NCBI GenBank assembly: GCA_977017645.1
Contig: OZ360237.1
Location: 30,380,001-30,444,000 of the forward strand
Direction of reading: 5' to 3'
Source of the DNA: Torpedo marmorata
Taxonomy: Eukaryota
Length of the DNA stretch: 64,000 nucleotides
Shown piece after piece: positions 26,421 through 55,719 of the stretch. Both the position numbers and the translations under genes were made by a program. Below the pieces are notes generated by a model that saw only the letters and a program-made list of their open reading frames with translations, did not search any database and was not told the DNA's origin. The first letter of the stretch is position 1, and every line of letters starts with the position of its first letter.

Positions 26421-29400
26421 TGTGTGATTTAAAAATTTTAAATAACATATTAAAAAAAAACAAACAGAAAAATACACACAGAACCATAGAGCATACAAAA
26501 CACATTTATTGAGTCACACTAGCGGGAATGAGTAGTATTAATGTCAGGTTGACAGTGTCACCCTAATTAATACCAGAACCGCATTCAAAGATCCAAGGGA
26601 AACAGTACAGTATATAAGGCATTTTCTTGCATACAAATCTGATAGGCATCTCTTTGAACTTATTGTTACAAGCTTACGTTTTACATTTTGCATTGCTATT
26701 TTCTAAAGACAGGGAAATGGTTGACGTCAAACAATTATTCACATGTACAAGTCATAATTAAAAGATATAATTTCTTGCATATGAAATTGGCAGAAGTCTG
26801 GAAAGATTGCTTCCAATACACAGTAACATCCACGTTCTGTATGCCTGATATTTAGTCTTTAATTATCACATGTAAATGGTCGGTCTCACAATAATATTAA
26901 GCCATCAACATTAACAATGGAGAAAGAAACTTCGAGGCTGAAACAATATTAGATCAAAACTGAACTGGCGCCTTCAGTGTGACTGTTTGCCTCCAAAGCC
27001 ATTGATAAACTTAAATCACGACTGACAGGTTGTAACGTTCAATCAGCTGCGTTTGTGCGGGAAGCCAGTTATGAATGGACTGCCTGTTGACAGGTCGTTG
27101 ACTCGACCGGCAAAGCCAGTTAGCGCTATTGTGTTAAAAGGCATTATGCATGGAAAAATTAATTGAAAGAACTAAGCAAAGATATTATGAATTGGGAGAA
27201 AGAGCGCATAAAGTGTTGGCGTGGCAATTAAAGAAAGATCAAACCTCTAGAACTATAAATGCTATAAAAAAGAATTCCAAAAAAATAACTTATAGACCTC
27301 GAGAAATAAATGATTCTTTTAAGGAATTTTATCTGAATTTATATAAATCTCAAATTGATAAAGATGATTCTAAAATTAATGAATTCTTATCTAAAATTAA
27401 GTTACCTAGATTAAATACTCAAAGTAAAGAATTTTTGAACTCGCCTTTTTTGATGAGGGAAGTTAATGAGGTTCTTAGCTCTTTAGCGAGTGGAAAATCT
27501 CCAGGAGAAGATGGTTTCCCATCAGAATTTTATAAAGAGTTTAAAGATTTATTGATACCTCCATATATGGATGTGTTGAAACAAATAACGGAAACTCATT
27601 TGTTACCAGAACATTTTCGAATGCAATAATTACAGTTATACCTAAAAAAGATAGAGATTTGTTGAAAACAGAATCTTATAGACCAATTTCATTGTTAAAT
27701 GTGGATTATAAGATAATGGCAAAAATTTTAGCAAATAGAGTGGCTAATTATTTACCAGATTTAATTCATGAAGATCAAGCTGGTTTTATTAAAAATAGAT
27801 ATTCAAAAGATAATATAGCTAGATTAATTAGTTTAATTAATGTGGAAAAAAAAGATGATTTACCATTAGTATTAACTTTAGATGCTGAAAAGGCTTTTGA
27901 TAGATTAGAGTGGAATTATTTATTTAAGGTATTGGGGAAATTTGGTTTTGGAACTACATTTATTAATTGGATCAAAACTATATATAAAGAACCATCTGCC
28001 AAAGTGGTGACAAATGGACAAATTTCTTCAAAATTTTCTTTGACTAGGTCAACTAGACAGGGATGTCCTTTGTCGCCAGCATTGTTTATTTTAGCAATAG
28101 AACCTTTGGCAGAATTAATTAGACAAGATATTAAGATTGTAGGTATTAAAGTTGAAAGAGAAGAACATAAAATTAGTTTATTTGCAGATGATGTATTGAT
28201 TTATATGACAAACCCTAATATTTCTTTATTACAATTGAATGTTTTATTGAAAGAATATGGGGAAATATCTGGTTATAAGATTAATTCTGATAAAAGTGAA
28301 ATTATGGCATTGACACAAGGGGATTATAGTAAATGTAAAGAAATTACACAATTCTAATGGTCAAAGGAAGGAATTAAATATCTGGGAATAAAGATTGATA
28401 CAAAATTAGCTAATTTATAAAAATTAAATTATCTACCATTATTTACGAAAATTAAAAAATATTTAGAAAGTTGGAAGGATTTACTTATAACTTTAATAGG
28501 AAGGGTAAATTGTATTAAAATGAATGTCTTTCCAAGAGTTCAATATCTTTTCCAATCAATTCCTTACGAAATTCCTTTGAAATTCTTTAAGGATTTAAAT
28601 TTAATTATTAGAAAATTTTTGTGGAAAGGAAAGTTGGCTAGAGTAAGTATGGAGAAATTAACTTGGAATTATGAAATAGGTGGTTTACAACTTCCTAATT
28701 TTCAAAATTACTATAAAGCAGCTCAATTAAAATTTGTTAATGAAATGTTTGATTTAGGTAAGTCTTCTGCTTGGATTAGAATAGAATTAAATAATATAGG
28801 AGAAGATTTGAAAGAAGAAGTTATTTATAAATGGAATTCTAAATTATTATCAATAAGAGGGAATAATTCTCCTATTTTTAAACATTTGTTAGAAATATGG
28901 AATAGAGTGGATAGTGAGATAGGAGGGAAAGGCTCGATTTCTCGAAAAATGCCTCTATATCAAAATAAACTCATTCCATTTACTGTTGATAATCAATTAT
29001 TTAAAATTTGGTTCCAAAAGGGAATTAAGAAAATAAATGATTGTTTTGAAGCTAGTAAATTTATTACTTTTCAAAGAATGAAAGATAAGTTTAATGTATT
29101 GAATAATACACTTTTTGCTTATTATCAAATTAGAGCATTTTTAGTTGGGAAGTTGGGTTATAGTTTGATTCTACCAAGTCAGAGTGAATTAGAATTATTA
29201 GTTACTAATGGAGGTGTAAATAAATTTATTTCTCAAATGTATAGATTGTTTCAGAGAAAAATCCCTAAAGTAGGAATTCATAAATCAAGATTAAAATGGG
29301 AATCAGATTTGAATGTAACAATAGATGAAGAACATTGGAAAGAATTATGTAAATTAAGTATGACGAAGATTATTAATGTTAGTTATAGATTAGTTCAATA

Positions 29401-29775
29401 TAATTTTTTTCATCAACTATATTTAATGCCTAAAAAATTAAAGAAATTTAATTCGACGTTATCAGGTTTATGTTTTAGATGTAATAGAGAGGAAGTAAAA
29501 AACACAAATGCTGGAGAAACTCAGCAGGTCAAACAGTGTCTTTTATGTAGCAACGTTTCGGGCTTGAGCCCTTCATCAAAATATGAGAAAATGCTGGCAG
29601 GCGTCCGAACAAAAGAGTGAGGGGAGAAGGGGGGGGTGGTGGCAAAGGCAGGAGATGATAGGTGGAGAAAGGAGGGAGGGGACAGCAGCAAAGAGGGGGA
29701 GGAGGGATGGCTGGGTGGGTGGAAAAAAACAGGAAGGACAGGTGAGGGGGGAGGGGAAGGAAACGACAAGCAGGT

Positions 29776-32700
29776 TTAGTGGAAAGCAGAAAAGTCCACG
29801 TTAATGCCATCGGGCTGGAGAGTGCCGAGACGGAAAATGAGATGTTGTTCCTCCAATTTGCGGGTAGTCTGGGTGGGATAGTACATAAGGCCGTGGACAG
29901 ACATGTGAGTGTGGGAGTGTGACCCGGAATTGAAATGGTTGGCTACTGGGAGGTTGCTGTTGTTGCGGACGGAGAGGAGGTGCTCAGCAAAGCGATCTCC
30001 CAATCTACGACCGGTCTCTCCGATGTAGAGAAAGCCACAAAGGGAGCACCAGATGCAGTAAATAAGTTCTCTAGATGTACAAGTGAAGTGTAGTTTCACT
30101 TGGAAGGCCTGTTTGGGACCCCGGACCGTGGTGAGGGGGGAGGTGTGGGTGCAGGTGTTGCACCTCCTGCGGGCACAGGGGAAGGTGCCGGGGGTGCGAT
30201 GGGTGGGGAGGGATGAGTGCACGATGGAATCGTGGAGGGAGCGGTCCCTGCGGAAGGACGAGAGGGGAGGAGAAGGAAATATGTGTCTGGTGGTGGGATC
30301 CTGTAGTAAGTGCCGTAAATTCCGTCGGATAATGTGTTGGATGCGTAGGCTGGTGGGGTGGTAGGTGAGGATGAGGGGGATTCTATGTTTGTTGCGTCTG
30401 GGGGCAGAGGGGGCCAGGGCAAATGAGCGGGAAATGGAGGAGATACGGGTGAGGGCTGAGTTGATGGTGGTGGAGGGGAAGCCACGTTTGTGGAAAAAGG
30501 CAGATATTTCAGAAGATCTGGACTGGAACACCTTATCTTGGGAACAGATGCGGCGTAGACGGAGAAATTGAGAGAAGGGGATGGAATCCTTGCAGGGGCA
30601 GGGTGTGAGGAAGTGTAATCCAGATAGTTGTGGGAGTTGGAGGGTTTGTAGTAAATGTCGGTGGAAAGCTTGTCTCCTGAGATGGAGACAGAGAGATCCA
30701 GGAAGGGGAGAGTGTTATCGGAGATGGACCAGGTGAGTTTGAGATCGTGGTGGAAGTTGGATGCGAAGTGGATGAAGTTGACAAGCTCATCACGGGTGCA
30801 TGAGGCAGCCCCGATGTAGTCGTCGATATAACGGAGGAAGAGATGAGGGGTCTTGCCTGTGTAGGCTTGCAGCATGGATTGCTCCACAAAGCCCACAAAC
30901 AGGCAGGCGTAGCTGGGACCCATGCGGGTACCCATGGCTACTCCTTTGATTTGGAGGAAGTGGGATGAGTTGAAGGAGAAGTTATTGAGAGTGAGGACAA
31001 GTTCTGCCAGGCGGAGGAGGGGGGTGGTAGAGGGTGACTGGTTGGGTCTTTGGTCCAGGAAGAAGCGAAGTGCTTTCAGACCTTCTGTGTGGGGGATAGA
31101 GGTATAAAGGGATTGGACATCCATGGTGAAGATGATGCGGTCCGGTTCCTGGAATCTGAAGTCATTGAGGAGATGGAGGGCATGTGAGGTGTCGCGGATG
31201 TAGGTGGGGAGGGATTGGACCAGGGGAGAAAAGATGGAGTCAAGGTAAGATGAAACTAGTTCGGTGGGGAAGGAGCAGGCAGAAACAATGGGTCTACCCA
31301 GATGGTTGGGTTTGTGTATCTTGGGTAGAAGCTAGAAACGGGCAGTGCGGGGGTGGAGGAGAATGAGGTTGGTGGCCGTGGAGGGGAGGTGACCGCAGGT
31401 GATGAGGTCAGAGATGGTGTTGGAGACAGTGGCTTGATGTGCAGTGGTGGGGTCCTGTGGGAGGGGTCGGTAGGAGGAGGTGCCTGAGAGCTGTCGACTG
31501 GCCTCGGCAAGGTAGAGGTCAGTGCGCCAGACCACAACCGTACCGCCCTTGTCTGCGAGTTTGATGGTGAGGTTGGGATTGTTGCGGAGAGAGTGGAGGG
31601 CAGAGCGTTCTGAGGAGGTGAGGTTGGAATACGAGAGGGGGGTGGTGAAGTTGAGACAGTTGATGTCTCGGCGGCAGTTGGAAATAAAAAGGTCCAAAGC
31701 GGGCAGCTGGCCAGGGCGAGGTGTCCAGGAAGAAGGCTTGAAGCGGGAGAAAGGGTCTTGGGAGGGGGGTGGAGAGTCACAGTCATGGAAGTGAGCCCGG
31801 AGGCGGAGGCGACGGAAGAAGAGTTCGGCATCACGGCGTGCGCGGAACTCGTTGAGGTGTTGGCGGAGGGGGACGAAGGTGTGGCCTCTACTGAGGACCC
31901 AGCGCTCCATCTCAGAGAGGGAAAGGTCGGAGGCGATAGTAAAAACCAAGCAGGGGTTAGCGTGGGGATCGGTGTTGTGGAGGGTGTTGGGGGGAGAGGG
32001 AGGGTTGGGGAGGTCAGAGGGGGGAGGTGGAGGGTGGGGGAGGTTGGAGGGAGGAGGAGGGGTGTGGGTGGGGGGAGGGGGGTCGGAGGGGTGAGGTCGG
32101 GGGTGCGGGAGGTAGGAGGGTAGCCAGAGAGATGGGTGGATGGAAGGAAGGGAAGGGATGAGGTCTGAGGGTTGGGGAGGAGAGGGGGGCAGAGAGGGGG
32201 AGATGGGGGTGGAGTAGGGAGAGGTGTAGGAGGATAGGGTAGGAGTGGTGAGGGGGATAGGTAAGTGGTATCTAGTAGCGAGATGAGGACTCCAGTGGCA
32301 GTCAGCGTGGGAGGCTCCAGCAGGTAACAGTCCTTGTCGGGAGTCGGCAGTGGAGGCATAGGGAGCTCTGGTGAGTAGGGGCTCAGGGCCCGGGCTGGGG
32401 TGGGCGGCCGTAGTGTCGGGAGTACCTTCTTGTCGGTGCGCGGGTAGGAGTGGGCGGCTGTGGCTTTGGGAGCTCCGGTGAGACGGCGGCCGGGTCTAGG
32501 CTCGGGTCGGCGGCCGTCGCGTTAGGAGCTCCGGTAAGTCGGCGGCCGGGACCAGGGATCAGGTCGGTGACAGCGGCGTTGGGAGCTCCGGTGAGACGGC
32601 GGCCGGGGTCCAGGGTCGGGTCGGCGGCCATAGCGTTGGGAGCTCCAGAGGGTAAGCGGTCGGGGCCGAGATGGGGATCCAAGTAGAGGGTCGAAGAGGC

Positions 32701-33186
32701 TGCAGTCTCGAGGGAGGCAAGCTTACGGTTCTTGATGGACGCCAGGTGAGTGTAGAGCCGGCGGTTGAACATGTGGATCTGGCGGCGGATGTAGTATAGG
32801 AGGGGTTCGCTGCAGGCCATGGCCAGCGAGGTCCGGAGCTGTGGCAGGGAGAGGGCGAGTTGCCGCTGGTATCTCCGCATCGAGGTGAGGGTGATGCGGA
32901 GGAGTCGTTGGGAGAAGCGGAGAGAGCAGCAGTCGATGTTGTGGAGGTACCTGAGGTCCTTGCGGGGGCCAAACTGCGAGGCCTGGAATCGAAGCTGGAA
33001 ACCACGAGGCACAAGATGGCAGCGGAGGCAAGTAGCAAGGAAGGCAACGTGGCTGTGGAATCAAGTCTGGGTGAGTACATGGTCGTAGAGCTTGAGAGCA
33101 GCAGGGGTTGCAGATGGGGAGCAGTGAGAGAGAATCCCACAGAACTCCCTTCGGAGAGCAAAGGCGAACTTCTTCAGGGTAGGCAT
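29776..33186 (-). pseudogene. PLE polyprotein (N-terminal region, RT, GIY-YIG endonuclease) with several frameshifts and stops
   Basis: Starts MPTLKKF at 33186. Motifs IKLADKGG, DVQSLYTSIPH, GVAMGTRMGPSYA, RYIDD, FLD, YYKP, LIYCIWCSLCGFLYIGETGRRLGDRFAEH, PDGIN. Confidence 0.88.
32469..32650. repeat. 60-bp tandem repeat (about 3 copies) in the PLE N-terminal region
   Basis: GGAGCTCCGGTGAGACGGCGGCCGGG recurs at about 60-nt spacing and encodes GRRLTGAPNA repeats. Confidence 0.8.
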
Positions 33187-33217
33187 CCCTGAGTTTTCAG
33201 AGTTGTTGTAGTATTCA

Positions 33218-34803
33218 GAAGTAAAACACGAAAATCTGTAGACACCGTGGATGAAGTAAAAAACACAAATGCTGGAGAAACTCAGCAGGTCAAACAGTGT
33301 CTGTTATGTAGCAAAGGTAGAAATACATAACCGACGTTTCGGGCTTGAGCCCTTCATCAAAGTATGAGAAAATGCCGGCAGGCGTCCGAACAAAAGAGTG
33401 AGGGGGGAAGGGGGGGGGGTGGCAAAGGCAGGAGATGATAGGTGGAGAAAGGAGGGAGGGGACAGCAGCAAAGAGGGGGAGGTGGGATGGCTGGGTGGGT
33501 GTAAAAAAAAAAACGAAGGACAGGTGAGGGGGGAGGGGAAGGAAACGACAAGCAGATATAGTGGAAAGCAGAAAAGTCAATGTTAATGCCATCTGGCTGG
33601 AGAGAGCCCAGATGGAAAATGAGATGTTGTTCCTCCAATTTGCGGGTAATGTGGGTAGGATAGTACATAAGGCCATGGACAGACATGTAAGTGTGGGAGT
33701 GTTACCCGGAATTGAAATGGTTGGCTACTGGGAGGTCGCTGTTGTTGCAGACGGAGAGGAGGTGCTCAGCAAAGCGATCTCCCAATCTACGACCGGTCTC
33801 TCCGATGTAGAGAATGCCACAAAGGGAGCATCGGATGTAGTAAATAAGTTCTCTGGATGTACAAGTGAAGTGTAGTTTCACTTGGAAGGCCTGTTTGGGG
33901 CCCCAGACCGTTGTGAGGGGGGAGGTGTGGGTGCGGGTGTTGCACCTCCTGCGGGCACAGGGGAAGGTGCCGGGGGTGCGATGGGTGGGGAGGGATGAGT
34001 GCACGAGGGAATCGCGGAGGGAGCGGTCCCTGCAGAAGGCCGAGAGGGGAGGAGAAGGAAAAATGTGTCTGGTGGTGGGATCCTGTAGTAAGTGCCGTAA
34101 ATTCCGGTGCATAATGTGTTGGATGCGGAGGCTGGTGGGGTGGTAGGTGAGGATGAGGGGGATTCTATGTTTGTTGCGTCTGGGGGCAGAGGGGGCCAGG
34201 GCAGATGAGTGGGAAATGGAGGAGATGCGGATGAGGGCTGAGTTGATGGTGGTGGAGGGGATGCCACGTTTGTGGAAAAAGGCAGACATTTCAGAAGATC
34301 TGGACTAGAACACCTCATCTTGGGAACAGATGCGGCGGAGACGGAGAAATTGAGAGAAGGGGATGGAATCCTTGCAGGGGACAGGGTGTGAGGAAGTGTA
34401 ATCCAGATAGTTGTGGGAGTTGGAGGGTTTGTAGTAAATGTCGGTGGAAAGCTTGTCTCCTGAGATGGAGACAGAGAGATCCAGGAAGGGGAGAGTGTTA
34501 TCGGAGATAGACCAGGTGAGTTTGAGATCGTGGTGGAAGTTGGATGCGAAGTGGATGAAGTTGACAAGCTCATCGCGGTGCATGAGGCAGCCCCGATGTA
34601 GTCATCTATATAACGGAGGAAGAGATGAGGGGTCTTGCCTGTGTAGGCTTGCAGCATGGATTGCTCCACAAAACCCACAAACAGACAGGCGTAGCTGGGA
34701 CCCATGCGGGTACCCATGGCTACTCCTTTGATTTGGAGGAAGTGGGATGAGTTGAAGGAGAAGTTATTGAGAGTGAGGACAAGTTCTGCCAGGCAGAGGA
34801 GGG
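33218..34803 (-). mobile_element. Second, 5'-truncated PLE unit (RT C-terminal half, GIY-YIG, pLTR)
   Basis: Near-identical direct repeat of about 29496-31025, extending ~40 nt further at the pLTR end. Confidence 0.9.
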
Positions 34804-34875
34804 TGGATATGCCAGGGATTGAACTCAGGATCTGATACATGCAAAGCACACACTCTCCCACTGAGCCACATCTCC
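34804..34875 (-). pseudogene. tRNA-Ala(UGC)-derived sequence (72 nt) embedded in the PLE
   Basis: Minus strand GGAGATGTGGCTCAGTGGGAGAGTGTGTGCTTTGCATGTATCAGATCCTGAGTTCAATCCCTGGCATATCCA is about 60/72 identical by eye to the recalled vertebrate tRNA-Ala-TGC. Confidence 0.88.
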
Positions 34876-34925
34876 CTTCCCCCCTCATTCTTTTGTTCAG
34901 ACGCCTGCCGGCATTTTCTCATACT

Positions 34926-34958
34926 TTGATGAAGGGCTCAAGCCCGAAACGTCCGTTA
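34926..34958 (+). ncRNA. Minimal hammerhead-ribozyme-like motif of the PLE pLTR (representative copy)
   Basis: TTGATGA-AGGGC-TCAA-GCCC-GAAAC-GTCC-GTT. Related copies at about 29552(-), 33330(-), 44058(-), 45572(+), 51790(+), 54760(-), 54790(+) and 62329(+). Confidence 0.7.
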
Positions 34959-36636
34959 TGTATTTCTACCTTTGCTACATAAAAGACACTGTTTGACCTG
35001 CTGAGTTTCTCCAGCATTTGTGTTGTTTACTTCAGCCACGGTGTCTACAGATTTTTGTGTTTTACTAATAGAGCGGAAGGTTCTTTTGTACATTCTACAT
35101 GGTTTTGTCCAAAGATATATGATTTTTGGTTGAAAGTTAAAAACTTTTTAGATAAAGTATTGAACATTACACTTCCATTGGACCCTATGATAATTTTGTT
35201 TGGAGATATTAAAAGAATTAGTATTAAGATGAAATTAAATATGTATCAAATAGAATTTTTGCGAATGCTTTAGCTGTTTCTAAGAAGTGTATTGCTATTA
35301 CATGGAAATCTGATGTAGATTTAGGGTTAGAGAGATGGCATGCAGAACTTCGTTCATGTATACCACTTGAAAAAAAATTACTTATAATTTACGTAATAAA
35401 TACCATTTCTTTTTGAAAATATGGAGCCCATATATAAAAGCTGTTGGTTTAAGGATTTGAAGATCTCTGGACATCGGATCTGACTGGCGAATATATCCTC
35501 CAAAGTAAAATTAGTTTATAGTTGTACTTTTTAGATTGACATTCTCCTTACTCTATCTTTTTTAATTATTTCAGTAGATTAGTATGGGCTCCCCGTGCTT
35601 CCGGCGAGGTTGTCGGCTAGGTCGTACAGTGTTCTGTGCGACTCGACTGCACCTCATCGGTGAGCTGGTGTTAGTCAGGGGGGTGGGAGGGTTAGGGAGG
35701 GGAGGGAGGAAGGGGGGGTGAAAATGTATCACATGTATTTTGATAATTTTATATTTTAATTTATGTATTTTGTGATTTAAAATTTTAAATAAAATATATA
35801 TTTTTTTAAATTAAAAAAAGGCATTATGCATTTCGTAAGCTTGTATGCGTGCTGTCCACCCAGGAAATGACCGAAGTAATTAATTCAGATGGTTTTGTAG
35901 GGTGAGGTGATTAGTTTTAATTGTTTGTCTGGGATGTGCCTCTGCCTAGTAAACAGGCGGCTCTGTCTGGCCACAGCTCTGAAGCCAGTTTTTAGTGTGC
36001 TTACTAAAGACAAATCTGTGGTTCTTCTCTCATAACTGTCATTTCTGGATAGCATAGAAATACAAACTTCAACACCCCCACATGCACGTCAACCTTTTAT
36101 CCCCTCTATACTAATCATATTAGGACCTCATCCTTCTATGTTTTTTTAAGTGTATGTATGTGTGTGTATATATACCACTCAAACATTGTAAATGTATATG
36201 ATTCCATCACCACCTCTGGCAACATATTCCAGATTTCAACCGCTCTTTTTTTTAAAAAAAAAAGAGCCCTTCAGATCCCCTTCCTCTCATCTTACCCATG
36301 ATCCTTCCTCTCCTCTTAACCATGATGCTCTCCTGTTTTTTGATACTCCTGCCATGCGGAAAAAGATTTTGACTGTCTTCGCCTCTCATAATCTAGTGTA
36401 CTTTTATCAGGCCATCCCTCAGCCGCCTTCACTCCAGGAATACAAGCTGAACTTATCCAGTCTCTCCAAAGTTAGACTGCATCTTGCTGATAGAGTGCAT
36501 TACAGCTGGTGGAAGGGGGAAATGCATGATTAAGACAGTGTATGTAATTCTTATCAAATTGACAGTTGTCCTAGATTGTTCCGTACTTAAATGGTAATGT
36601 AGTTGTAGTTATTGGAAGGTGGTCGACTGCAATCCT

Positions 36637-37088: not shown

Positions 37089-37365
37089 GGGCAGCAGGGT
37101 TAGCGTAGCGTTTAGCGTAACGCTATTACAGCGCCAGCGACCCGGGTTCGAATCTGGCATTGTCTGTAAGGAGTTTGTACATTCTCCCCGTATCTGCGTG
37201 GGTTTCCACTGGGTGCTCCAGTTTCCTCCCACTCTTCAAAACGTACCAGAATCATAGGTTAATTGGGGTATTTAGGCGGCACGGGCTTGTGGGCCGGAAG
37301 GGTTCGTTACCACGGTACCATAAATTTGTATGTTCAAATGTAAAATTTAAAAAATTAAATTAAAA
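37089..37365 (+). mobile_element. tRNA-derived V-SINE (HE1-like)
   Basis: tRNA-like head with B box GGGTTCGAATC, then the V-domain GGAGTTTGTACATTCTCCCCGTATCTGCGTGGGTTTCC..GGGTGCTCCAGTTTCCTCCCA. Confidence 0.85.
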
Positions 37366-37367
37366 TA

Positions 37368-37796
37368 CAGTAAAACCCCTGGTATCTGGCAGCTCACAGC
37401 ACATAATAGCCTGAATATGACTGGGGTTGTCTGATCTTGGAAGCTAAGCAGGCACAGGACTGGTCAGTGACCACCTAGGAACACCAGGTGCTGTAGGTTT
37501 CTGTGAGGGGCGCTGGACAAAAGTAGCGATCCTCTGTCTTGCCTTACAGTAGACAAAAATTAAAGAATTTCATATATGTTACATTCTAAATGTAGTATTA
37601 CGTGACAATAATGGAACTTTTACCTTTACTTATGGGGATGCCGGATAAGGGAATTTTCCAGTTGCTTGAGATTGCGTGATTGGCGAACGAACAGCGAGGC
37701 GTGCCAGTTTTAAACTTCGTATTTTTTACCTATTTATTTTCCACGATTTTTTTTTTTGCTGGTTGCTTGAATTCCAAATAAAATGGGTGTTTACTG
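37368..37796. mobile_element. Tc1/mariner-type MITE (CAGTAAAACCCC family) interrupted by a 5S SINE
   Basis: TA|CAGTAAAACCCCTGG ... GTGTTTACTG|TA. Confidence 0.8.
37395..37630 (+). mobile_element. 5S rRNA-derived SINE
   Basis: Same head and tail as 7064-7306, with a ~12-nt deletion in box C. Confidence 0.9.
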
Positions 37797-37879: not shown

Positions 37880-39960
37880 TTGCATCTTTTGTTAGCCACT
37901 GGTGGGATGCCAGAAGACTGGAGGATAGCTGATGTTGTTCGCTTATTCAAAAAGGGAAGTCATAATGAGTCTGGAAACTGCAGACTGCTGAGCCTTGCAT
38001 CATTGGTAGGAAAGTTGCTGAAAATTTTGAAGGACAGGATTTGTGTTCACTTGGAAAGGAAGGGATTGCCCAGGAAAGATCGGCATGATTTTGTGCAGGG
38101 GAGATCATGCCTCTCAAACCTATTTTTTTTTTCCACAAATAACCAAGAAAATTTGAAGACAATGCAGTGCATACAACATGCATGGACTTCAATAAAGCTT
38201 TCTTTTTTTTTTGACAAAGTCCTGCGCAGCAAAACTGTTAAGTCACAAGGGATCTGAGGGTGTGTTGACAACTGGATCCAGATTGTGTGATAGCTTCACC
38301 AAATACCTGCACTCTATTTGTGAGTCTAAACGAGTTTCCTTCAGCCAACCATTTTAACTTCCCACAGCAACATGTCTGTTCTTGGCCTCACCCATCGTCA
38401 AGGTGATGCCAAACATAAACTTCAGGAACAGCATATTATTCCTCCTGGACAGCCTTAAACCAAATGCTGTGAGCATTGATTTTTCTAATTTTAGGTAAAT
38501 CACCCCCATCTGATTCCACGGTTTCCATAGTTTCTTTACCTACTCCTGAAATTATTTTTTCTCCTCTCTCACGCTCATCCCCACTTCATTAATGGTCTCT
38601 CACTGTACCTGCCTCTCCACTTCTCATACCTTTTCTCCTATCACCTGTGGGCCCCCTCCTCCAGCCTCTTTACTTCTTTATACAAGTAATATCACCCCCT
38701 TCCCTCTTGTTGTGAATGTTGTCTGACATGCTGAGTTCCTCCAGCAATTTTTGTCTACTCAAGATTCCAGCATCTGCAGATTTTGTTTCTCTGTTTCTGA
38801 ATCCAGAATTGGCTTGGGTAGTGGTGTATAGATTTTTCTCTGACTGTACTAAGCGGTGTACCAAAGAATTGGTGCAGGGACTTCTGTTGTTTCTAATATA
38901 TATAAATGAATAGGCGGCACGGTTGGCGTAGCGGTTAACGCAACGCCAGCGACCGGGGTTCGAATCCCGCGCTGTCTGTGAGTTTGTATGTTCTCCCCGT
39001 GTCTGCATGGGTTTTCCCCAGGGGCTCTGGTTTCCTCCCACCGTTCGAAATGTACCGAGGGTCGTAGGTTAATTGGGTGTAAATTGGGCGGCATGGGCTC
39101 ATGGACTGAAATGGCCTGTTACCGTGCTGTATGTCTAAATTTTTTAAAAAAAGAATGAGAATCTAGGTGGTCTAATTAAATTTGCAGGTGACATTATAAT
39201 TGGTAGAGTTGTAGATAGTGAAAAAGGTTGTCTAAGGATACAGTGGGACATGAATCACCTGGAACATTGGGCAGAATGATGGCAGATTAAATTTAACCCA
39301 GAAAAGTGTGAGGTGATGCACTTTGGGAGGACAAATTCTAGAAGGATATGTTGAGTAAACGGCAGGAGAGTTGATGCATAGGGTGAATGTGGTGCAATCT
39401 ATAGCTTGCTGAAAGTGTTGACATAAGTGATAGGGAGTGCCTTGGGTCAGGGCATTTACAACAAGAATTCGGACATCTTATTGCAGCTGTAAAATAGATT
39501 GGTTGAACCACATTTGGAATGCTGTTCTAGTCACCACACTATAATAAGGACTTGGATGCAACGGAGCGTGCAGAAGAGATTTGCCAGGCTGTTGCCTGGG
39601 ATAGAGGGCTCCAGTTATTGAGTTTATTCTCAATGGAACATGGTAGACTGAGCAGTGATCTTTGTAGAAGTTTTACTATCTGTGCCCCTCATAATTTTAT
39701 AATCTCTTTCACATGGCAGCAGAGTCCAGAACACTATTTAAGTGAGAGGGGAGAAATTTAAAGGTGATCTGAAGGATATGTTTTTCCACACACAGGATGG
39801 TGGTTATTTGAAATGAGCAGCAAGAAGGGGTGATTAATGTTTAAAAGACATTTGAACGTGTACTGAGATAGGAAAGGTATAGAAGGATATGGGCATAATG
39901 ATGTCAAATGGGATTGGTGTAAATGGGCATCCGTGATCTGAATCGACATTACCACACTGT
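37880..39960 (+). mobile_element. Degenerate CR1 LINE RT fragments with nested PLE fragment (about 38290-38790) and V-SINE
   Basis: PEDWRIADV..LFKKG, HDFVQGRSCLSNL, KFAGD, WQ..FNPEKCEVMHFG-like motifs. Confidence 0.7.
38913..39150 (+). mobile_element. tRNA-derived V-SINE
   Basis: GGCGGCACGGTTGGCGTAGCGG...GGGGTTCGAATCCC, V-domain core, A-rich tail. Confidence 0.85.
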
Positions 39961-41595: not shown

Positions 41596-43659
41596 TAGTT
41601 GGATTCGTCAGGCTCAAGCAACATTTTGAAACTTTACCAGGTGATGCAAGTCAGCTTGCAAGAGCAGCTGCTGAAGAAAAAGCTTTTAATCTTTAAAAAG
41701 AGGCCTTGTTTCTTTGCCTTGAATGATCCCTCGTGTTGTTCAGTCTCTTGAACAGATATCCCTGTGGACATATTTGACTGGCCATTATAAACCAATTCAT
41801 GGGGTCGAGGCAGAATGCCAGGTGAGCAGCTTCCTGTAGGTTCTCTGGAGGATCTGACGTGCTGGCTCAGCCATTTCTGTGAAGAAAAGGTGGGACAATG
41901 GAGAATGTTCACAACTGCCAGGAATTACATCAGAATTAATAGAATCTGCAGAAATTACTGGGAATTGGGAGAGTCTGAAAATATACAATTAGGTTTTGCT
42001 CACCTCCTTCAACATCTCCTCTGTCTCCCTCTGGTTCCACTTCAGAATCAGAATTTATTGTCATGAACAAGTCATGAAATTCGGTGTTTTGCGGCAGCAT
42101 CACAGTGCAAACATTCATATTATTTCCATCTTACGACATTGTTGTCCTTCTGTCAAAAGAGATAGTCCTGTGATGTAGTTATTTTCCCTCTGACAGTAAT
42201 GCCATATCTCCCACATTCTAATGGAAAGACTTGGACTATTCATGAGTCTTTGATCAAGATATTCTATAATATTAGTTGACATATTCCTACGCTTTAAGGA
42301 CCTGCAGAAAAATTGAAATTCTGCTGCTTTAATGTTGTTTCATGCATTACAGCATTTCAAATAGTTGTGAAGTGTGCATAGCATTTGGGGAGAAAATTAT
42401 GACCTGGGGAGGCTGACATCATGCTAACGTGTGAATAAGTGGCATGTGGTTCGGACGAGTGAATATTTTTTTTGAGAACCTCACAAGCAGTTATGTTTCC
42501 CCTCCTCGTGAGGCCTTTAAATTCCTTTCAGTCAAGTTCTTTGGTGCCACTGGAGTAGAAAGCTTGGCTTGTGTTAAAAGAGTCCAATACCTTTCATCAA
42601 TGGCAATGATGTGTAGCATCTCTTAAAGACCTACATCGGTTATACAGTTGTCTCTTCATCTGAATGTCTCACTGTAGTGAGATGCTATCTCACTTGGGTT
42701 CTGTACCGATTTTGATGGAAATTGTTGTGGGACAAAGATGCTTAACGCAAATTATTGATAAAAGTGTTTAGTTTAAAGTTTAGTCTCATCTTTCATACTT
42801 TTACTTTTATCAACTGATTAAAACCCTACATTCAGCTGCCTCGAACTCCCCATCGATGGCGCAGTATCATCTGTCTCCGGCTGCCTTTTATACAGTTTTC
42901 ACTTGTTCAAACACAATTGTATCAATCCTATCCTGCACCTGGCAATTGGCACCATCATGTCTACTCTTATACCACTAAATCACAACTTTTACATTTGCCC
43001 CGAAATAGCAACCTTTATATTTTGTATGCAAATACTGTCCTTGTCTATGTACAAAACTACTCAAGTCACAAACACTCAGTCACAAAACTATTCTTGAATT
43101 CTACACCTTGACCTTCTTCGTGTTTCTTTACAATAGTTTTTCCATGTATTTAACGTGGACAAGTAGATTTAGTACATCTGGGATCTATACAACTGTTGCT
43201 GATATTTTGCAGCATTTGGAGGTGAGGCATTTGAAAAGAGGTAAGATCTTCCCTTCCTAGATTACCACATGACTACAAATGTGTGTTGTCCCATAATCGG
43301 TAGCATCACGATCTGGTATGGGAACACCAATACCTCTGAGCGTAAAGCCCTCCAAAAGGTAGTGAACACAGCCTAGGACATCACAGGCAAAACCCTCCCC
43401 ACTATCGAGAATATTTACAGGGAATGCTGCCGTCAGAGAGCAGCAGCAATCATCAAGGATCCACACTGTCCAGCACACACTCTGTTCTCACTGCTGCCAT
43501 CAGGAAAGAGGTAGAGGTGGCACAAGTCTCGCACCACCAGGTTCAGGAACAGCTGCTACCCCTCCACCATCAGACTCCTCAACAACAAACTCGATCAGGG
43601 ACTCATTTGAGGACTCTTTACTTTTGCACTTTATTGATTTTTTAAAATTCTCTCTGTAC

Positions 43660-43877
43660 CAATAGCCTGAATACGACAGGGATTATCTGATCTCGGAAGC
43701 TAAGCAGGCACAGGACTGGACCGCCTTAGGAACACCAGGTGCTGTACATTTCTGTGAGGGGCGCTGGACAAAGTAGCGACCCTCTGTCTGCCTTACGGTA
43801 GACAAAAATTAAAAAGAAATTCATGTATGTTACATTCTAAATGTAGTATTACGTGACAATAATGGAACCTTTACCTT
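43660..43877 (+). mobile_element. 5S rRNA-derived SINE
   Basis: Same family as 7064 and 37395, TGTAC direct repeat on both flanks, ~18-nt internal deletion across box C. Confidence 0.9.
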
Positions 43878-43965
43878 TGTACAGTTAGTTTGTTTACATT
43901 TCTTTATCTGTTTTCATGTGTACGTTGTGTACTTTTTTTTGCACTACCAATAAGTGGTAATTCTG

Positions 43966-44135
43966 AAGTAAAACACGAAAATCTGTAGACAGCATGGTTG
44001 AAGTCAAAACACAATGCTGGAGAAACTCAGCAGGTATAGTAAAGGTAAAAATACATAACTGACGTTTCGGGCTTGAGCCCTTCATCAAGGTATGGAAAAA
44101 TGTTGGCAGGTGTCCGAACAAAAGAGTCGGGGGGC
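43966..44135 (-). mobile_element. Short PLE pLTR-derived insertion with hammerhead motif
   Basis: Matches the pLTR at 33218-33410. 8-bp TSD TAATTCTG at 43958 and 44136. Confidence 0.85.
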
Positions 44136-45399: not shown

Positions 45400-45702
45400 T
45401 ACCTAAAGGAGACGGGGGGGAAGGAAAGACAGGAGGACAGAGCTACAGGAAAGTAGACATAGGGAGGGAGGGGTCCTCTTCCCCATATCCAATCATCACT
45501 TTTTGTCTGTTGGTCTGTACTCCTCCCCCTGCCATTTCTTTTATTCAGATGCTGCCTGCTTTTTCCATACCTTGAAGAAGGGCTCAGGCCCAAAATGTAG
45601 GTAATATATCTTTACCTCCTATGGATTCTGCAAGACCTGCTGTTCCTCCAACATTTCTGTGTTTTTACTACAATCACAGTATCTGCAGACTTTCGTGTTT
45701 CA
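45400..45702. mobile_element. PLE-derived pLTR fragment (antisense then sense piece)
   Basis: CCATACCTTGAAGAAGGGCTCAGGCCC...CAGTATCTGCAGACTTTCGTGTTT. Confidence 0.7.
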
Positions 45703-46217
45703 CCCCCTCCAATGACAATGTCCATATCAACAAACCACCACAGTGCAGTCACCTGGTAAGTGAATGAAAAGAACTATGCAGTCAAATGAGTGGGAATGGT
45801 GTTCTGTACAAGATAAACAAATAAAAAAGAGATCCAGAACAGATATCTGGAAAAGCTGGGAGTGGATTGGGCACAGTCAAGAACGTTGGGTCAATTTGTC
45901 GCAATGGGTGCTTTCAATGGTCCATAAAGCTTTCGAGCACCCACTTTAGAATAGCACAATTCTACTCAGCAGGCAGCAATGAAAATTTGTATGTTTTGGT
46001 TGGAGCCCACGCCCACCAACCAATCTGATCAAAACTAGCTACTGCATGGAAAATCAACCCCACTACATCATCAAGAAAACGCAGCCAAGTTGTCATACCT
46101 TTGCTTCTCAAGATTTGACATCAATCCAAAGGCTGTGCAGAATAACAGCAATAAATCTTCTCCATTGCTTCCTTTTGGCTGTGGAATTTTATCCCAGTGT
46201 TGTTATTTATGTTTTTC

Positions 46218-47059: not shown

Positions 47060-48890
47060 CAACTTCAATTCTCTGATAACAGTAAGAAGGAAATTGTCCT
47101 TGAAACTTGAGTTCATGTTTTAAAGCTCGTGTACCCTCTGCCCGACAAAAAGGAGGAAGTGGGGAGAGAAGAGAGTGTGACTGGGTTGGGATGGGTCCTT
47201 TAATATATTTGGCAGCTTTCCCAAAACAATGGGTGGAATAGATGGCCTGAGTTGCAGTTTCTTGCAGTTTTGGGCAAGACTGTACCAAGCTGTGATGCAT
47301 CAGATGCTTTCTATGTTGTAGCTATTTTAAAAATAAAAATTGGAAGAGAAATTGGGCACATGCTGAATTTCCTTAGGTTTCTGAGGATGTAGAGTTTTTG
47401 AACTGCTGTATTTGCTGTCGTTGGACCAGAACAGGTTAGTGATATTTAAAGTTAAAGGTAAAGGTTCCATTATGTCACGTAATACTACATTTAGAATGTA
47501 ACATACATGAAATTCTTTAACTTTGTCTACCGTAAGGAAGACAGGGAGTCGCCACTTTGTCCAGCGCCCCTCACAGAAATGAGGCCCCAGCGGGGAACGA
47601 ACTCGTGGACCCTGCTTTACAAGACCAGTGCTCTAACCACTAAGCTGTGGAGCCTCTTATTCCTAGGAGCTTGAAGTTCTCCACCTTGACACTGTTGATA
47701 CATACAGGGGGAGGTTCCCCCACACTCCATCCACTTCCTGAAGTAGAGAACCAGTTCCTGGTTGTTGTCCTCAGAGTATGACACCATGCTCTCTCCTTCC
47801 TGTACTCCATGTCGCCATTGAGATCTGTCCTGCGACAGTGGTGTCATCTGCAAACTTGTAAATGGCAGTAGATAGGAATTTGGCCATGCTGTCATGAATG
47901 TATTGGCAGTATTGGAGGGAAATAAGTGCACACTGGTATTGAGGATTATCGTAGATGTTTTGTTGCTATTCCTCACTGAGCATGGTTTGCAGGTCAAGGA
48001 TCTAGTTGCAAGGGTGGGTGTTGAGCCCTAGGTTTGGCGATGAGTTTGTCTGGGACTATTGGGTTGACGAGCTATAGTCAATAAATTGGGTCTGGCAAAG
48101 GTATTTCTGAGTGTTCCAGGTCTAAGTGCAGGGCCAGGGAGATGGTGTTACAACAGTTGTAGTGGGAGGTCAAAGTTGATGTGAACCATGACCAGCCATT
48201 CAAAGCACTGCATGATGATGCATGTCAGAACCACTGGGTGGTTGTCATTGAGGCACATTGGCTTGCTTTTCTTTGGTACTGAGATGATAGTGGCCGTCTT
48301 AAAGCAGATGGGAACTTCAGCTGCAGCAGGGTGAGGTTAAAGATCTCCATGAATACTAATGTCAACTCGTCAAGAAATGACCAAGGACTCCATCCAGGCT
48401 GATTGTTTTTCATGGATTCACTCTCAGGAAGGCTATCTGATGTCTGCAATGGTAACCATGGATGCGTCGTGCATGAAGCTGTTGATGTCGGTTCACTGTC
48501 CTTCTGTTCAACGCAAGCATAGAATGCATTGAGCTCATTGTGGAGAGATGCATTGTTATCTTTTGATTCTGCCTGATTTTGCTTTGTAGCCCTTGCTGGT
48601 ATGCATACCTTGTCTCAATTGCCGAATATCTGTGAGGTTTATCTGGGTCTCAAGCTTGGTCTGATATTGCCTCTTGGTGTCCCTGATGGCCTTGCGAAGA
48701 TCATGCCTGGATTACTTGTATAGATCAAGGTCACCAGACTTGAAGCCTAAGACCTGGACTTCAGCAAGGAGTGCATCTTCTGGTTCATCCACACTTTCTC
48801 AGATTGTTTGCTTTGGCACACAGTCATCAACAAATTTGCTAATAAATTCTGTAACGGCATTGGCATTTGTATTTAGATTGGCCAGTGAGA
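47060..48890 (-). mobile_element. Old degenerate Rex-Babar-type LINE
   Basis: Minus-strand remnants of LNDY.PV, IILNT, KFADDT and KFLG motifs across frameshifts. Confidence 0.65.
47447..47654 (-). mobile_element. tRNA-Thr(UGU)-headed SINE sharing the tail of the 5S SINE
   Basis: 47654-47582 reads GGCTCCACAGCTTAGTGGTTAGAGCACTGGTCTTGTAAAGCAGGGTCCACGAGTTCGTTCCCCGCTGGGGCCT (about 65/73 to recalled tRNA-Thr-TGT), then TTTCTGTGAGGGGCGCTGGACAAAG...(CCTTTA)n. Confidence 0.9.
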
Positions 48891-51597: not shown

Positions 51598-51932
51598 CAT
51601 CACCTTCTCTGGTTTCTGCTAGCCTACTTCCCTCTGTCTTCTTTCCTTCAGCTCTCCACCCCCTTCCCTCTCCATTCACAGAGCCATTCCCACTCCCCTT
51701 GTTTGCTGGTGTGCCATCCCTCCCTTATCCCTACCCTACCCATCCCCCACCATTTTGTTCGGGCGCCTACCCACATTTTATTCATACCTTGATGAAGGTC
51801 TCAAGCCGGAAACATTGGTTATGTATCTTTATCTTTGCTACATAAAGTACATTGTTTGACCTGCTGAGTTTCTCCAGCATTGTGTTTTTACTTCAATCAC
51901 GGACGGTGTCTGAAGACTTTCGTGTTTTACTC
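51598..51932 (+). mobile_element. PLE 3' end / pLTR fragment
   Basis: Homologous to 62100-62470, with the motif CCTTGATGAAGGTCTCAAGCCGGAAAC. Confidence 0.8.
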
Positions 51933-52896
51933 CTCTCATATATTTGAATTGTTATGTCTGGTGTGCATAAAAAAAATTGTTGATGCAGATTTTGCAGTAA
52001 CTTTTAAAATCGAATTGAATAAATTGAGGAAGAAAACTTTGGAGGGTTAGACCAGGAGAATTAGTATAATTGGTAAGTTTTTGGAGAGCCAGCATGAACA
52101 CATTTGGTAGAATGCCCTTTTGTGGTGTACCAATCTAAGGAAGTGTTGCATGTAACTGAAAGAGAAAGTGCTTCTTCATTACTGTATTGATCAAATAATA
52201 TAAACTGCTGTTGTCTCACGTGAAGTTTGAATGCATGACCTCCAACTCTGAAGTGCTACTGCTATGTCAGGGCTGTCATTCAAATCCTGTAGCAAAGCAG
52301 TAGCTGCTCAATGTACAACACAAGATTTAATAGCATCCTGGAATTAGCAAATGTGTTTGCTTTGTAGTGAGATGAGAAAAGAAGCACATGAACTTTATAA
52401 AACCCTGCCAGAAGTAATAAGAGGGGAAGAAAATTTCTGGGAACCAATTAACTAGCCTCCATCTGAAGGCTGATTGTGGAGAGCACAAATAAAGGGCACT
52501 CCTGTTTGATTTAACAAATCACAAGCATGCATCCTGGTAAGGACTTCAGATAGGAATTCAGCTGTTCACCATGTGAGCCAGCTTCCTTACATCATGAATC
52601 TGTTCTCATCATCCTCCCATTTGAGCTAAAACTAAGCATCCCCAGATGCAAGAAAATTGAACTGCTGTCATCCAGAAGAGTGCATTTAATATAATCATAG
52701 CAAGAATCTCTGGTTTGTTTTCAAATGTTTTGTTGGCAAACCTTCAAATAAAACCCCTTCCCTGCCAGGCAACTCCAGTGGCATCAAATGCAGATATATG
52801 CATTACTGGCATTGTAGGAATTAAAACTATCACAGCTGCACTCTCACAAATGAAGTTAGAGTAGAAAACTGTCCAGATTTCTATTCCTGATTTTGC

Positions 52897-54686: not shown

Positions 54687-54928
54687 AAAACTTCATGCTG
54701 GAGCAACTCAGCAGGACAAACTGTGTACTTTATATAGCAAAGATAAAGATACATAACCAATGTTTCGGGCTTGAGCCCTTCATCATACCTTGATGAAGGG
54801 CTCAAGCCCAAAACATTGTTTATGTATCTTTATCTTTGCTATATAAAGTACACAGTTTGTCCTGCTGAGTTTCTCCAACATTGTGTTTTTATTTCAACCA
54901 CGGTGTCTGTAGACGTTAGTGTTTTACT
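54687..54928. mobile_element. Palindromic mini-PLE (two pLTR ends back to back)
   Basis: 15-bp TSD ACCCAAAATGAGATA at 54672-54686 and 54929-54943. Inverted repeat of about 90 bp centred on 54786-54790. Confidence 0.9.
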
Positions 54929-55719
54929 ACCCAAAATGAGATACTGGGCTAAAGCGCTGTCTTCAAAATGTCTCCCAAATTTGTGACCGTTATATTTTAC
55001 ACACCAACATATGGGCTTCTGTAACTTCTACTTTCAAAATGATTTAATTTATTGCTTTGTCTTTTGTCAAATTTCTGATGGATGTTAATGCAAATGCTGC
55101 AGTCAGATAGATATTTAATAGCCTTGCACTTCATCTTAACATTTTTGTATAATGTATAATTCATGCAAGAACCTTGACATCTGGCTCTATTCTACATGTG
55201 TTATGGGTTAATGGTCTTGATTAAGCTATAAGTACTATTCCTTTGAGACTATTTCTAGTTCTGAATTTGGTTAGTGTTAATTCTGAATCTCTCAATGTAA
55301 GATCATTGCTTTGTTGTTTCTGATGAGGTGGAATGGAAGTGGTGATATAATATTGACTCTTTTGCTTAACATTTTCATTCGATAAATTGACCTTGTGTGT
55401 TCCATTATCTTAAAATCTTGTTAGACTACAGATTTGGAGCCCTTTCAATCTATTGGAGACTGGTACAATCTGATGAATTTGCTGCAATTTACAAAAGTGT
55501 ACTATAATGGCCAATGCACACTGATAAGAATACAGTGCTTTGTTTTCAGATGGAAAGTATTAACATTTCCAAAAGCTTGAAAAAGGTATCATTTTCGAGA
55601 TACCTTTTGATTTTTTTGTTCTAAACAAGGTATCTTAACTATTCCTGTGGAGAGAACAAAATAAGCCTGGATTAGCATTTTTTGGAGATACCACATCCAA
55701 CAAAGGCTGTCATATTGCA

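What the first reader, a model, noticed from the sequence alone, without database searches (positions are those of the whole stretch)
34800..34880. A whole tRNA-Ala captured at the inversion junction of a Penelope insertion
Seen: inside one TSD-flanked PLE insertion, the order on the coding (minus) strand is inverted pLTR (35065-34877), then 72-nt tRNA-Ala(UGC) (34875-34804), then the 5'-truncated PLE unit, then the full unit. The tRNA 3' end (TCCA-CC) joins PLE RT sequence where the intact unit reads CTACCACCCCCCTCC (about 31015-31030), giving a CCACC microhomology with the tRNA ...CCA-CCA end. The tRNA 5' end merges with the GGGGAAGGG of the pLTR. There is no separate TSD or A-tail around the tRNA. 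Known: template switching that yields U6/tRNA chimeras is established for LINE RTs, and 5' inverted pLTRs are typical of PLEs. Inference: PLE RT jumped onto the 3' end of a tRNA-like RNA, copied it end to end, and then joined the second strand. This could seed PLE-mobilised SINEs. The tRNA looks more diverged than the two PLE units are from each other, so the template may have been a tRNA-derived SINE or pseudogene transcript.
Basis: partly seen in the sequence, partly recalled or inferred. Interest (0 to 1): 0.7.

Follow-up and report, generated by a model that had tools for sequence, protein, structure and literature searches.

The report
tRNA copy bridging a Penelope insertion
A complete but decayed alanine tRNA copy sits exactly at the seam between the two halves of one Penelope-type jumping-gene insertion, most likely because the element's copying enzyme hopped onto a tRNA-like RNA, an accident known from other jumping genes and here seen once in this class.

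Summary
The structure is real. One 5.57-kb Neptune-type Penelope-like (PLE) insertion with a 14-bp target-site duplication interrupts a LINE-1 ORF2. On the coding strand it reads inverted pLTR, a tRNA-Ala(UGC) copy running exactly from position 1 to 73, a 5'-truncated unit, then the full unit. Both tRNA ends overlap PLE sequence (GG; CCA) and there is no separate duplication or A-tail. Best explanation (0.6): twin-primed insertion in which first-strand cDNA jumped onto a tRNA-like RNA lacking an intact CCA, copied it end to end, and annealed to the independently primed inverted pLTR. Corrections: only CCA overlap is shown (CCACC needs an unseen CCA tail). The copy has about 10 derived changes in 72 nt against about 2% in the flanks. 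Either the template was already a pseudogene, or the copy hypermutated in place; I could not separate these. T-runs lie between the tRNA and the pLTR, so it is not a SINE seed as it stands. No independent contig confirmed the junction, and no genome was available. Small-RNA chimeras are known for L1, L2 and RTE; ten paper searches found none for PLEs. Verdict: single fossil, new variant of a known kind.

The parts
29482..29495 (+). Target-site duplication, left copy (14 bp); its first 4 nt on the coding strand also match the pLTR continuation (priming microhomology)
29496..33220 (-). Full-length Neptune-type PLE unit with 3' pLTR. The ORF is broken by stops and frameshifts. RT with DKG motif, CX4CxxC linker, GIY-CxxC-YIG endonuclease; this pLTR has a 20-nt deletion just 3' of the hammerhead-like core
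33221..33256 (-). 36-nt PLE 'tail' between the two GTGTTTT(T)AC end sites; present in pLTR2 and in the inverted pLTR, absent from the 3' terminal pLTR
   Evidence: tail concept from PMC11167929 and PMC8557442
33221..34803 (-). 5'-truncated tandem unit (3' half of RT, EN, pLTR2), 4.2% from the full unit
34804..34806 (-). CCA shared by tRNA positions 71-73 and the PLE family sequence (3' junction microhomology)
34804..34875 (-). tRNA-Ala(UGC) copy, positions 1-73, no CCA tail. About 10 derived changes including G3A (loses the G3.U70 pair), U20G and three CpG-to-TpG; G26, A37 and A58 unchanged; A and B boxes intact
34874..34875 (-). GG shared by tRNA G1-G2 and the G-run of the inverted pLTR (5' junction microhomology; 4 nt if position 3 was still G at capture)
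34876..35065 (+). Inverted pLTR with tail and hammerhead-like core, 7 mismatches in 190 nt to pLTR2
35066..35079 (+). Target-site duplication, right copy (13 of 14)
27138..29481 (+). Host LINE-1-type ORF2 (RT) upstream of the insertion; continues beyond 35080

Best explanation
One twin-primed PLE insertion captured a tRNA-like RNA by a template jump. (1, shown) The target, an AT-rich LINE-1 ORF2, was cut with a 14-nt stagger. (2, shown from the layout) One target end primed cDNA at the inner pLTR end site and ran through the full unit and 1.58 kb of the next unit. The other end primed separately at the outer site, 36 nt further on, and made the 190-nt inverted pLTR. (3, inferred) The first cDNA stalled at ...GGGTGG-3' and jumped to the 3' end of a tRNA-Ala-like RNA whose last bases CCA(CC) pair with it. 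The RNA was processed at both ends (starts at G1, ends at A73-C75, no intact CCA) and shows no clear modification scars. (4, shown from orientation) The tRNA was copied as part of this first strand, to G1. (5, inferred) The resulting CC(CC) end annealed to the G-run ending the second cDNA and the gaps were filled, so the tRNA served as an adaptor between the two cDNA ends. Template identity is open; my estimates are already-decayed tRNA pseudogene transcript 0.55, genuine CCA-less tRNA-Ala that hypermutated after insertion 0.35, low-copy SINE head 0.10.
For: A single 14-bp TSD encloses everything and the host is continuous across it. The tRNA spans model positions 1-71 of 71, so both ends coincide with processed tRNA termini. 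It has the same sense as the PLE RNA, so it is complementary to an extension of the first cDNA. Overlap at both junctions: CCA occurs at 137 of 3501 PLE positions (3.9%), CCACC at 26 of 3501, and GG at 60 of 401 pLTR antisense positions. The family sequence at the break is in register (loose ends in X2 and X3; TTTLL in P0001, P0070 and P0099). The inverted pLTR is not a mirror of its neighbour and carries the tail, so fold-back cannot have made it here. A purified PLE protein cleaves and extends both target strands and starts at two sites bounding the tail (PMC11167929). Template jumps onto small RNAs are reported for L1, L2 and RTE (PMC4476161).
Against: No independent contig was seen to bridge either junction. 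It is one event, so there is no recurrence statistic. The enzyme cannot be identified from a fossil, and this window holds a second full-length tRNA fused to a non-PLE SINE tail (47453-47654), so other RTs in this genome also make tRNA chimeras. The microhomologies are short (2 and 3 nt shown) in C/G-rich context. The copy is about 7 times more diverged than its flanks, which simple capture of a functional tRNA does not explain. U20G matches the reported acp3U20 misreading (PMC11100784 figure legend) while G26, A37 and A58 do not show scars, so the modification evidence is mixed.
Confidence: 0.6

Rival explanations
1. Repair patch: the PLE left two unjoined cDNA ends, and a different enzyme (another retroelement RT or a repair polymerase) filled the gap using tRNA RNA, a tRNA cDNA or a genomic tRNA pseudogene as template.
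For: Microhomology at both ends is also typical of end-joining. A DNA template would explain unmodified letters at 26, 37 and 58 and the decayed state. Other tRNA-headed retrocopies exist in the window.
Against: A genomic DNA template gives no reason for both ends to fall on positions 1 and 73 with no flank. An RNA-templated patch leaves the same sequence as the best explanation and differs only in the enzyme.
Confidence: 0.15
2. Pre-formed chimera: a 5'-truncated PLE had earlier joined a tRNA-Ala pseudogene elsewhere; a transcript starting at the tRNA's own promoter carried tRNA plus unit 2 and was copied here as one template.
For: Explains the exact 5' end, the older age of the tRNA part and the intact A/B boxes. 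PLEs are reported to capture and move host DNA (PMC3846280).
Against: Pol III would have to read through T5, T5 and T7-11 runs over 1.65 kb. The 3' end at exactly position 73 would be coincidence.
Confidence: 0.12
3. RNA ligation before reverse transcription (RtcB-type, as proposed for U6/L1): a tRNA lacking CCA or A76 was ligated to a broken PLE RNA.
For: Sense orientation and an end at A73-C75 fit. Ligation is listed as a route for L1 chimeras (bioRxiv 2025.02.02.635956). That nucleases leave cyclic-phosphate ends at these positions is recalled, not checked here.
Against: Ligation does not predict overlap; a 3-nt CCA match is expected at 3.9% of break points and CCACC at 0.7%.
Confidence: 0.08
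4. Assembly artefact.
For: No listed contig bridges the junction. PLE tandem and inverted arrays are known to trouble assemblers (PMC8557442).
Against: The two sides belong to one host element with a matching TSD. The insert is a unique decayed sequence cut at exact tRNA termini, which a DNA assembly error would not produce (inference).
Confidence: 0.03
5. Independent later insertion of a SINE or tailless tRNA retropseudogene into the finished PLE copy.
For: Tailless tRNA retrocopies use 3' microhomology (PMC2912911).
Against: No TSD or tail around the tRNA. Landing within 3 nt of the inversion seam has probability about 0.0013. Tailless copies are described as 3'-truncated and TSD-flanked. 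A later insertion should be less diverged than its host, not more.
Confidence: 0.02

Closest known systems
tRNA/LINE-1 chimeric insertions in the human genome (bioRxiv 10.1101/2025.02.02.635956; passages read)
   Same: tRNA sequence and a retroelement inside one TSD, from one insertion event.
   Different: There 21 loci, typically tRNA halves, mostly antisense to L1 and attributed to twin priming on the tRNA. Here the tRNA is full length, sense, internal between two element-derived segments, and the element is a PLE.
U6/LINE template-switch chimeras of L1, L2 and RTE, and tripartite chimeras (PMC4476161; passages read)
   Same: Full-length Pol III small RNA in sense orientation joined to a 5'-truncated retroelement within one TSD; double-jump tripartite forms are described.
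   Different: The small RNA is a decayed tRNA; its 5' end joins an inverted pLTR rather than target DNA; the RT is telomerase-related PLE RT.
Typical EN+ PLE insertion: partial tandem, adjacent inverted pLTR, 30-40 bp tail, TSD (PMC8557442, PMC3846280 passages; PMC11167929 parts 1-2 of 4)
   Same: Every PLE feature here follows this layout, including a 36-nt tail on the inverted pLTR.
   Different: A foreign 72-nt tRNA lies in the head-to-head seam. The word tRNA does not occur in PMC3846280 and occurs once, in another context, in PMC8557442.
PLE capture and trans-mobilisation of host sequences in Adineta vaga (PMC3846280; passages read)
   Same: Non-element sequence enclosed by pLTRs and a TSD; template jumps proposed for some captures.
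   Different: Those are kilobase host DNA or intron-containing genes between pLTRs, not an end-processed small RNA with matching termini.
Tailless tRNA retropseudogenes (as summarised in PMC2912911)
   Same: No A-tail; microhomology at the tRNA 3' end.
   Different: Those are 3'-truncated and have their own TSD; this copy is full length without one.

Membership tests
EN+ Penelope-like element, Neptune type (the carrier) | PLE-type RT with DKG motif | tested here: met
   RVT_1 E 6e-7; LADKGG; 387 homologs among 1348 candidates, best named ones from rays and sharks at 69-81% identity
EN+ Penelope-like element, Neptune type (the carrier) | C-terminal GIY-YIG endonuclease with two cysteines between GIY and YIG (CCHH) | tested here: met
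   LIYCIWCSLCGFLYIGET by motif match, with downstream His residues visible in the translation; Pfam gave no hit at E 0.001 for this piece
EN+ Penelope-like element, Neptune type (the carrier) | CX2-5CxxC linker between RT and EN (Neptune/Nematis, absent in Penelope/Poseidon) | tested here: met
   CARRRCNTC; definition from PMC8557442
EN+ Penelope-like element, Neptune type (the carrier) | Placement in the Neptune group by RT phylogeny | not tested
   No tree was built; the clade name rests on the linker motif
EN+ Penelope-like element, Neptune type (the carrier) | pLTR partial tandem, inverted pLTR, 30-40 bp tail, TSD | tested here: met
EN+ Penelope-like element, Neptune type (the carrier) | Hammerhead motif in the pLTR | tested here: inconclusive
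   A TGATGA-stem-GAAA core is present in all 3 pLTRs by a recalled motif; Rfam gave no hammerhead match at E up to 5
Small-RNA/retroelement template-switch chimera | Both parts inside one TSD, no TSD or tail around the small RNA | tested here: met
Small-RNA/retroelement template-switch chimera | Small RNA in the same orientation, 5' of a truncated element | tested here: met
Small-RNA/retroelement template-switch chimera | Both parts arrived at the same time (orthologous loci) | not testable with these tools
   No genome held
Small-RNA/retroelement template-switch chimera | Made by the element's own RT jumping templates | not testable with these tools
   Needs biochemistry or a recurrence statistic
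tRNA-derived SINE | Pol III head with A and B boxes | tested here: met
   The only hit of a recalled A/B-box pattern in the window
tRNA-derived SINE | Multi-copy family | tested here: inconclusive
   No second copy in the 64-kb window. In one search summed contig depth over the tRNA was 0-50 against 1e4-1e7 over the PLE, but depth is no copy number and human-like contigs are filtered out
tRNA-derived SINE | Short unit with own 3' tail and TSD | tested here: not met
   No tail or TSD; the pLTR end is about 1.65 kb away behind several T-runs
Functional tRNA-Ala gene | G3.U70 identity pair and intact stems (identity role recalled) | tested here: not met
   A3-U70; G or another base but never A at 3 in 41 of 41 references; mismatches in acceptor, anticodon and T stems, ARAGORN score 102; no folding signal, z 0.63
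Tailless tRNA retropseudogene | 3'-truncated and flanked by its own TSD | tested here: not met
   Full length, no own TSD

The most novel reading that the evidence does not exclude
PLE reverse transcriptase routinely jumps end-to-end onto CCA-less nuclear tRNAs, whose 3' CCA and 5' GG match the C/G-rich PLE cDNA ends, so tRNAs act as recurrent adaptors that close the head-to-head seam (the tRNA 3'-OH could even prime the second strand, like an accidental primer-binding site). In addition, this copy began as a true tRNA-Ala and, keeping its Pol III boxes but free of selection, mutated about 7 times faster than its same-age flanks, making it a dated natural read-out of tRNA-gene hypermutation.
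Probability: 0.12. Interest if true: 0.7.

Novelty: new variant of a known kind. Interest (0 to 1): 0.4.

Why it matters
The later steps of PLE transposition are unresolved; the one in vitro study I read leaves second-strand synthesis and joining unvalidated (PMC11167929). This locus is a fossil intermediate. It shows that the inverted pLTR can arise by separate priming rather than fold-back, and that the first cDNA can continue on an unrelated small RNA. If such captures recur, PLEs join L1, L2 and RTE as makers of Pol III-headed chimeras, the raw material of new SINEs. As one unreplicated event it changes little by itself, but it names a cheap genome-wide test.

Tried and rejected
Whole-genome search for the source tRNA and other junctions: no genome held. 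Sequencing runs: 21 listed, 1 with half the words or more; no RNA holder listed, which is no evidence on expression. Laying 4 of these 21 runs (X1, X2, X3, X6; all contigs) on 34600-35300: no listed piece bridges a tRNA junction; X2 had no cover over the tRNA; 76 difference rows, 244 joints and 241,499 pieces were not shown. In X1 two listed variants account for at most 42.0 of 44.1 depth at 34834-34835, which neither shows nor excludes the window's allele. Flank test for in-place hypermutation: 2 changes in the 30 inner-flank bases have probability 0.11 under a neutral 2.1%, 0.12 under 7x and 0.04 under 10x, so it does not discriminate. Strand bias of CpG decay: 3 of 3 TpG in the tRNA against 9 TpG to 7 CpA in the PLE units, too few. 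Modification-scar explanation for the whole divergence: rejected, because only position 20 of the four RT-sensitive sites reported for zebrafish Ala-TGC/CGC (20, 26, 37, 58; PMC11417395 passages) is changed, while most changes lie at other positions. Folding of the 72-mer gave no signal over shuffles. Rfam found no hammerhead. Look-ups of earlier scan notes found nothing on PLE-tRNA capture. Five other PLE-related fragments in the window were read at their ends; Rfam found no tRNA at them (3 matches in the whole window).

Full report
OBSERVATION. The window segment 34804-34875(-) is a tRNA-Ala(UGC) copy: ARAGORN and Rfam RF00005 at 41.3 bits, model positions 1-71 of 71, E 7.8e-7. It lies inside a 5570-bp insertion bounded by a 14-bp duplication (29482-29495 and 35066-35079, 13 of 14 identical). 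The flanks belong to one LINE-1-type ORF2 and match an uninterrupted paralog near 59.2 kb at 151 of 157 bases without gaps. The units differ at 65 of 1545 aligned bases; the inverted pLTR is 96.4% identical to pLTR2. The tRNA has no duplication or tail of its own.

THE CARRIER. The element has an RT with the DKG motif, a CX4CxxC linker and a GIY-CxxC-YIG endonuclease. The linker marks Neptune/Nematis-type PLEs (PMC8557442, passages); I built no tree. The best named homologs are from rays and sharks, so the host is probably a cartilaginous fish. The inverted pLTR extends 36 nt beyond the end of the 3' terminal pLTR. This is the 30-40 bp tail, which for an anole PLE lies between two RT start sites; that protein cleaves and extends both target strands (PMC11167929, parts 1-2 of 4 read). 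Here the inverted piece is not a mirror of its neighbour, so the fold-back self-priming proposed for palindromic seams (PMC3846280, passages) cannot have made it; separate priming from the second target end is the simple reading.

JUNCTIONS. At the tRNA 3' end the window reads TATCCA-CCCTCC. Unit 1 has six C after its CCA, so comparing with it needs a 3-nt gap. Contigs that stop aligning at 34806 in runs X2 (15) and X3 (178) show the family continuing as ACC-ACC-ACC-CTC, and three ray homologs read TTTLL there. So unit 1 carries a substitution and the junction is in register. The overlap shown is CCA (tRNA 71-73). A further CC would match a CCA tail, but an intact tail paired in its best 6-nt register would leave two CCA, and the product has one. 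The template therefore most likely ended at A73, C74 or C75 (inference). At the 5' end G1-G2 overlap the pLTR G-run, four G if position 3 was still G. Chance rates are 137 of 3501 positions for CCA, 26 of 3501 for CCACC and 60 of 401 for GG. The tRNA has the sense of the PLE RNA, so it was copied as a continuation of the first cDNA strand.

THE DIVERGENCE PUZZLE. The nearest differs from the window at 12 of 72. At 11 positions the window's letter is held by at most 12.5% of the 41; I dropped position 28, which varies between isodecoders, leaving 10: G3A, A9G, U20G, C25U, 43C, G46A, C50U, G52A, C63U, C69A. Seven are outside CpG and three are CpG-to-TpG. In the PLE units non-CpG divergence is 42 of 1417 pairwise (about 1.5% per copy) and 10 of 54 CpG decayed in unit 2. 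Seven non-CpG changes in 62 sites have P 4e-5, or 2e-3 if all pairwise divergence is put on one copy; 3 of 3 CpG has P 0.006. These references are not the host's own genes, which is a caveat. Three explanations were weighed. RT misreading of a mature tRNA does not fit well: zebrafish Ala-TGC/CGC shows misincorporation at 20, 26, 37 and 58 (PMC11417395, passages), and only U20G is changed here, although T>C/G is the reported signature at 20 (PMC11100784, legend). An already decayed pseudogene RNA fits: A and B boxes are intact and the CpG changes leave G.U pairs. Hypermutation in place also fits: active tRNA loci mutate 7-10 times faster than the genome average (PMC6130373, passages), close to the excess seen. 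The flank test, 2 changes in 30 bases, does not separate the last two.

COPY NUMBER AND SINE IDEA. The 72-mer has no second copy in the window. In the four runs laid, summed contig depth over the tRNA was 35-43 (X1), 0 (X2), 44-51 (X3) and 18-19 (X6), against about 1e4 to 2e7 over the PLE parts, and variant rows there rest on 1-2 contigs. The tool warns that depth is no copy number and that human-like contigs are removed, so this is only a hint against a large tRNA-Ala SINE family. As a SINE seed this copy is poor: T-runs lie at +202 (private to unit 2), +595, +812, +1256, +1300 and +1362 from the tRNA start, before the pLTR end near +1650.

INDEPENDENT CONFIRMATION. Not obtained. No genome is held. 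None of the 32 listed contig pieces bridges a tRNA junction and most output was not shown. An assembly error is unlikely on internal grounds (one host, matching TSD, insert cut at exact tRNA termini) but long reads are still needed.

MECHANISM. Most likely (0.6): twin priming, a jump of the first cDNA onto a CCA-less tRNA-like RNA through CCA(CC) pairing, copying to G1, and annealing of the CC end to the G-run of the second cDNA. Shown: layout, orientation, termini, overlaps. Inferred: the jump, the enzyme, the state of the RNA. Rivals: patch by another polymerase (0.15), pre-formed chimera transcribed elsewhere (0.12), RNA ligation (0.08), artefact (0.03), later insertion (0.02; landing chance about 0.0013).

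COMPARISON WITH WHAT IS KNOWN. It works like the U6/LINE template-switch chimeras of L1, L2 and RTE (PMC4476161, passages) and like human tRNA/L1 chimeras, which number 21 loci and are mostly halves in antisense (bioRxiv 2025.02.02.635956, passages; its supplementary table was not seen and may hold full-length sense cases). Template switch as a source of SINE heads is discussed in PMC4494074 (passages). PLEs are known to capture and move host DNA (PMC3846280) and to drive non-autonomous retrozymes (bioRxiv 2026.07.22.740005, passages, no mention of tRNA). I found no report of a tRNA captured in a PLE insertion in ten searches (five of them named Penelope), judged mostly from listings and abstracts. 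The library lacks most subscription papers, and Repbase and Dfam could not be searched, so absence from print is not established.

VERDICT. A real, clean, single fossil of small-RNA capture in a class of retroelement whose joining steps are unresolved. New variant of a known kind. Interest 0.4. The bolder reading, a recurrent tRNA-adaptor route plus a dated read-out of tRNA hypermutation, has probability about 0.12 and would deserve 0.7.

Noticed in passing
window 47453-47654 (-): A full-length tRNA-Thr(UGU)-like head (47582-47654, Rfam 37.2 bits) is fused, at the head/tail boundary, to the same 127-nt tail that follows the 5S rRNA head in three SINE3-type copies (7064-7309, 37396-37630, 43658-43878). 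Either a tRNA-headed sister SINE family or a one-off head swap; no TSD of 6 nt or more was found.
   Followed up: partly
window 7064-7309, 37396-37630, 43658-43878: 5S rRNA-headed SINE3-type family, copies 88-90% alike, ending in ACCTTT repeats.
   Followed up: no
window 29553-29554: The 3' terminal pLTR lacks 20 nt just 3' of the hammerhead-like core that are present in pLTR2 and the inverted pLTR.
   Followed up: no
window 32329-32667 and 31980-32260: The PLE N-terminal coding region holds six 57-nt tandem repeats followed by a long C-rich low-complexity stretch.
   Followed up: no
window 54695-54929: Short head-to-head pLTR fragment of a related PLE subfamily, apparently flanked by a CCAAAATGAGATA duplication.
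   Followed up: no
window 43960-44134, 45537-45703, 51734-51934, 61338-62474: Further solo or truncated fragments of related PLE subfamilies, 74-83% alike to the studied element.
   Followed up: partly
window 37171-37247 and 38980-39056: Two 77-nt repeats that resemble the V-SINE core (resemblance recalled, not tested).
   Followed up: no
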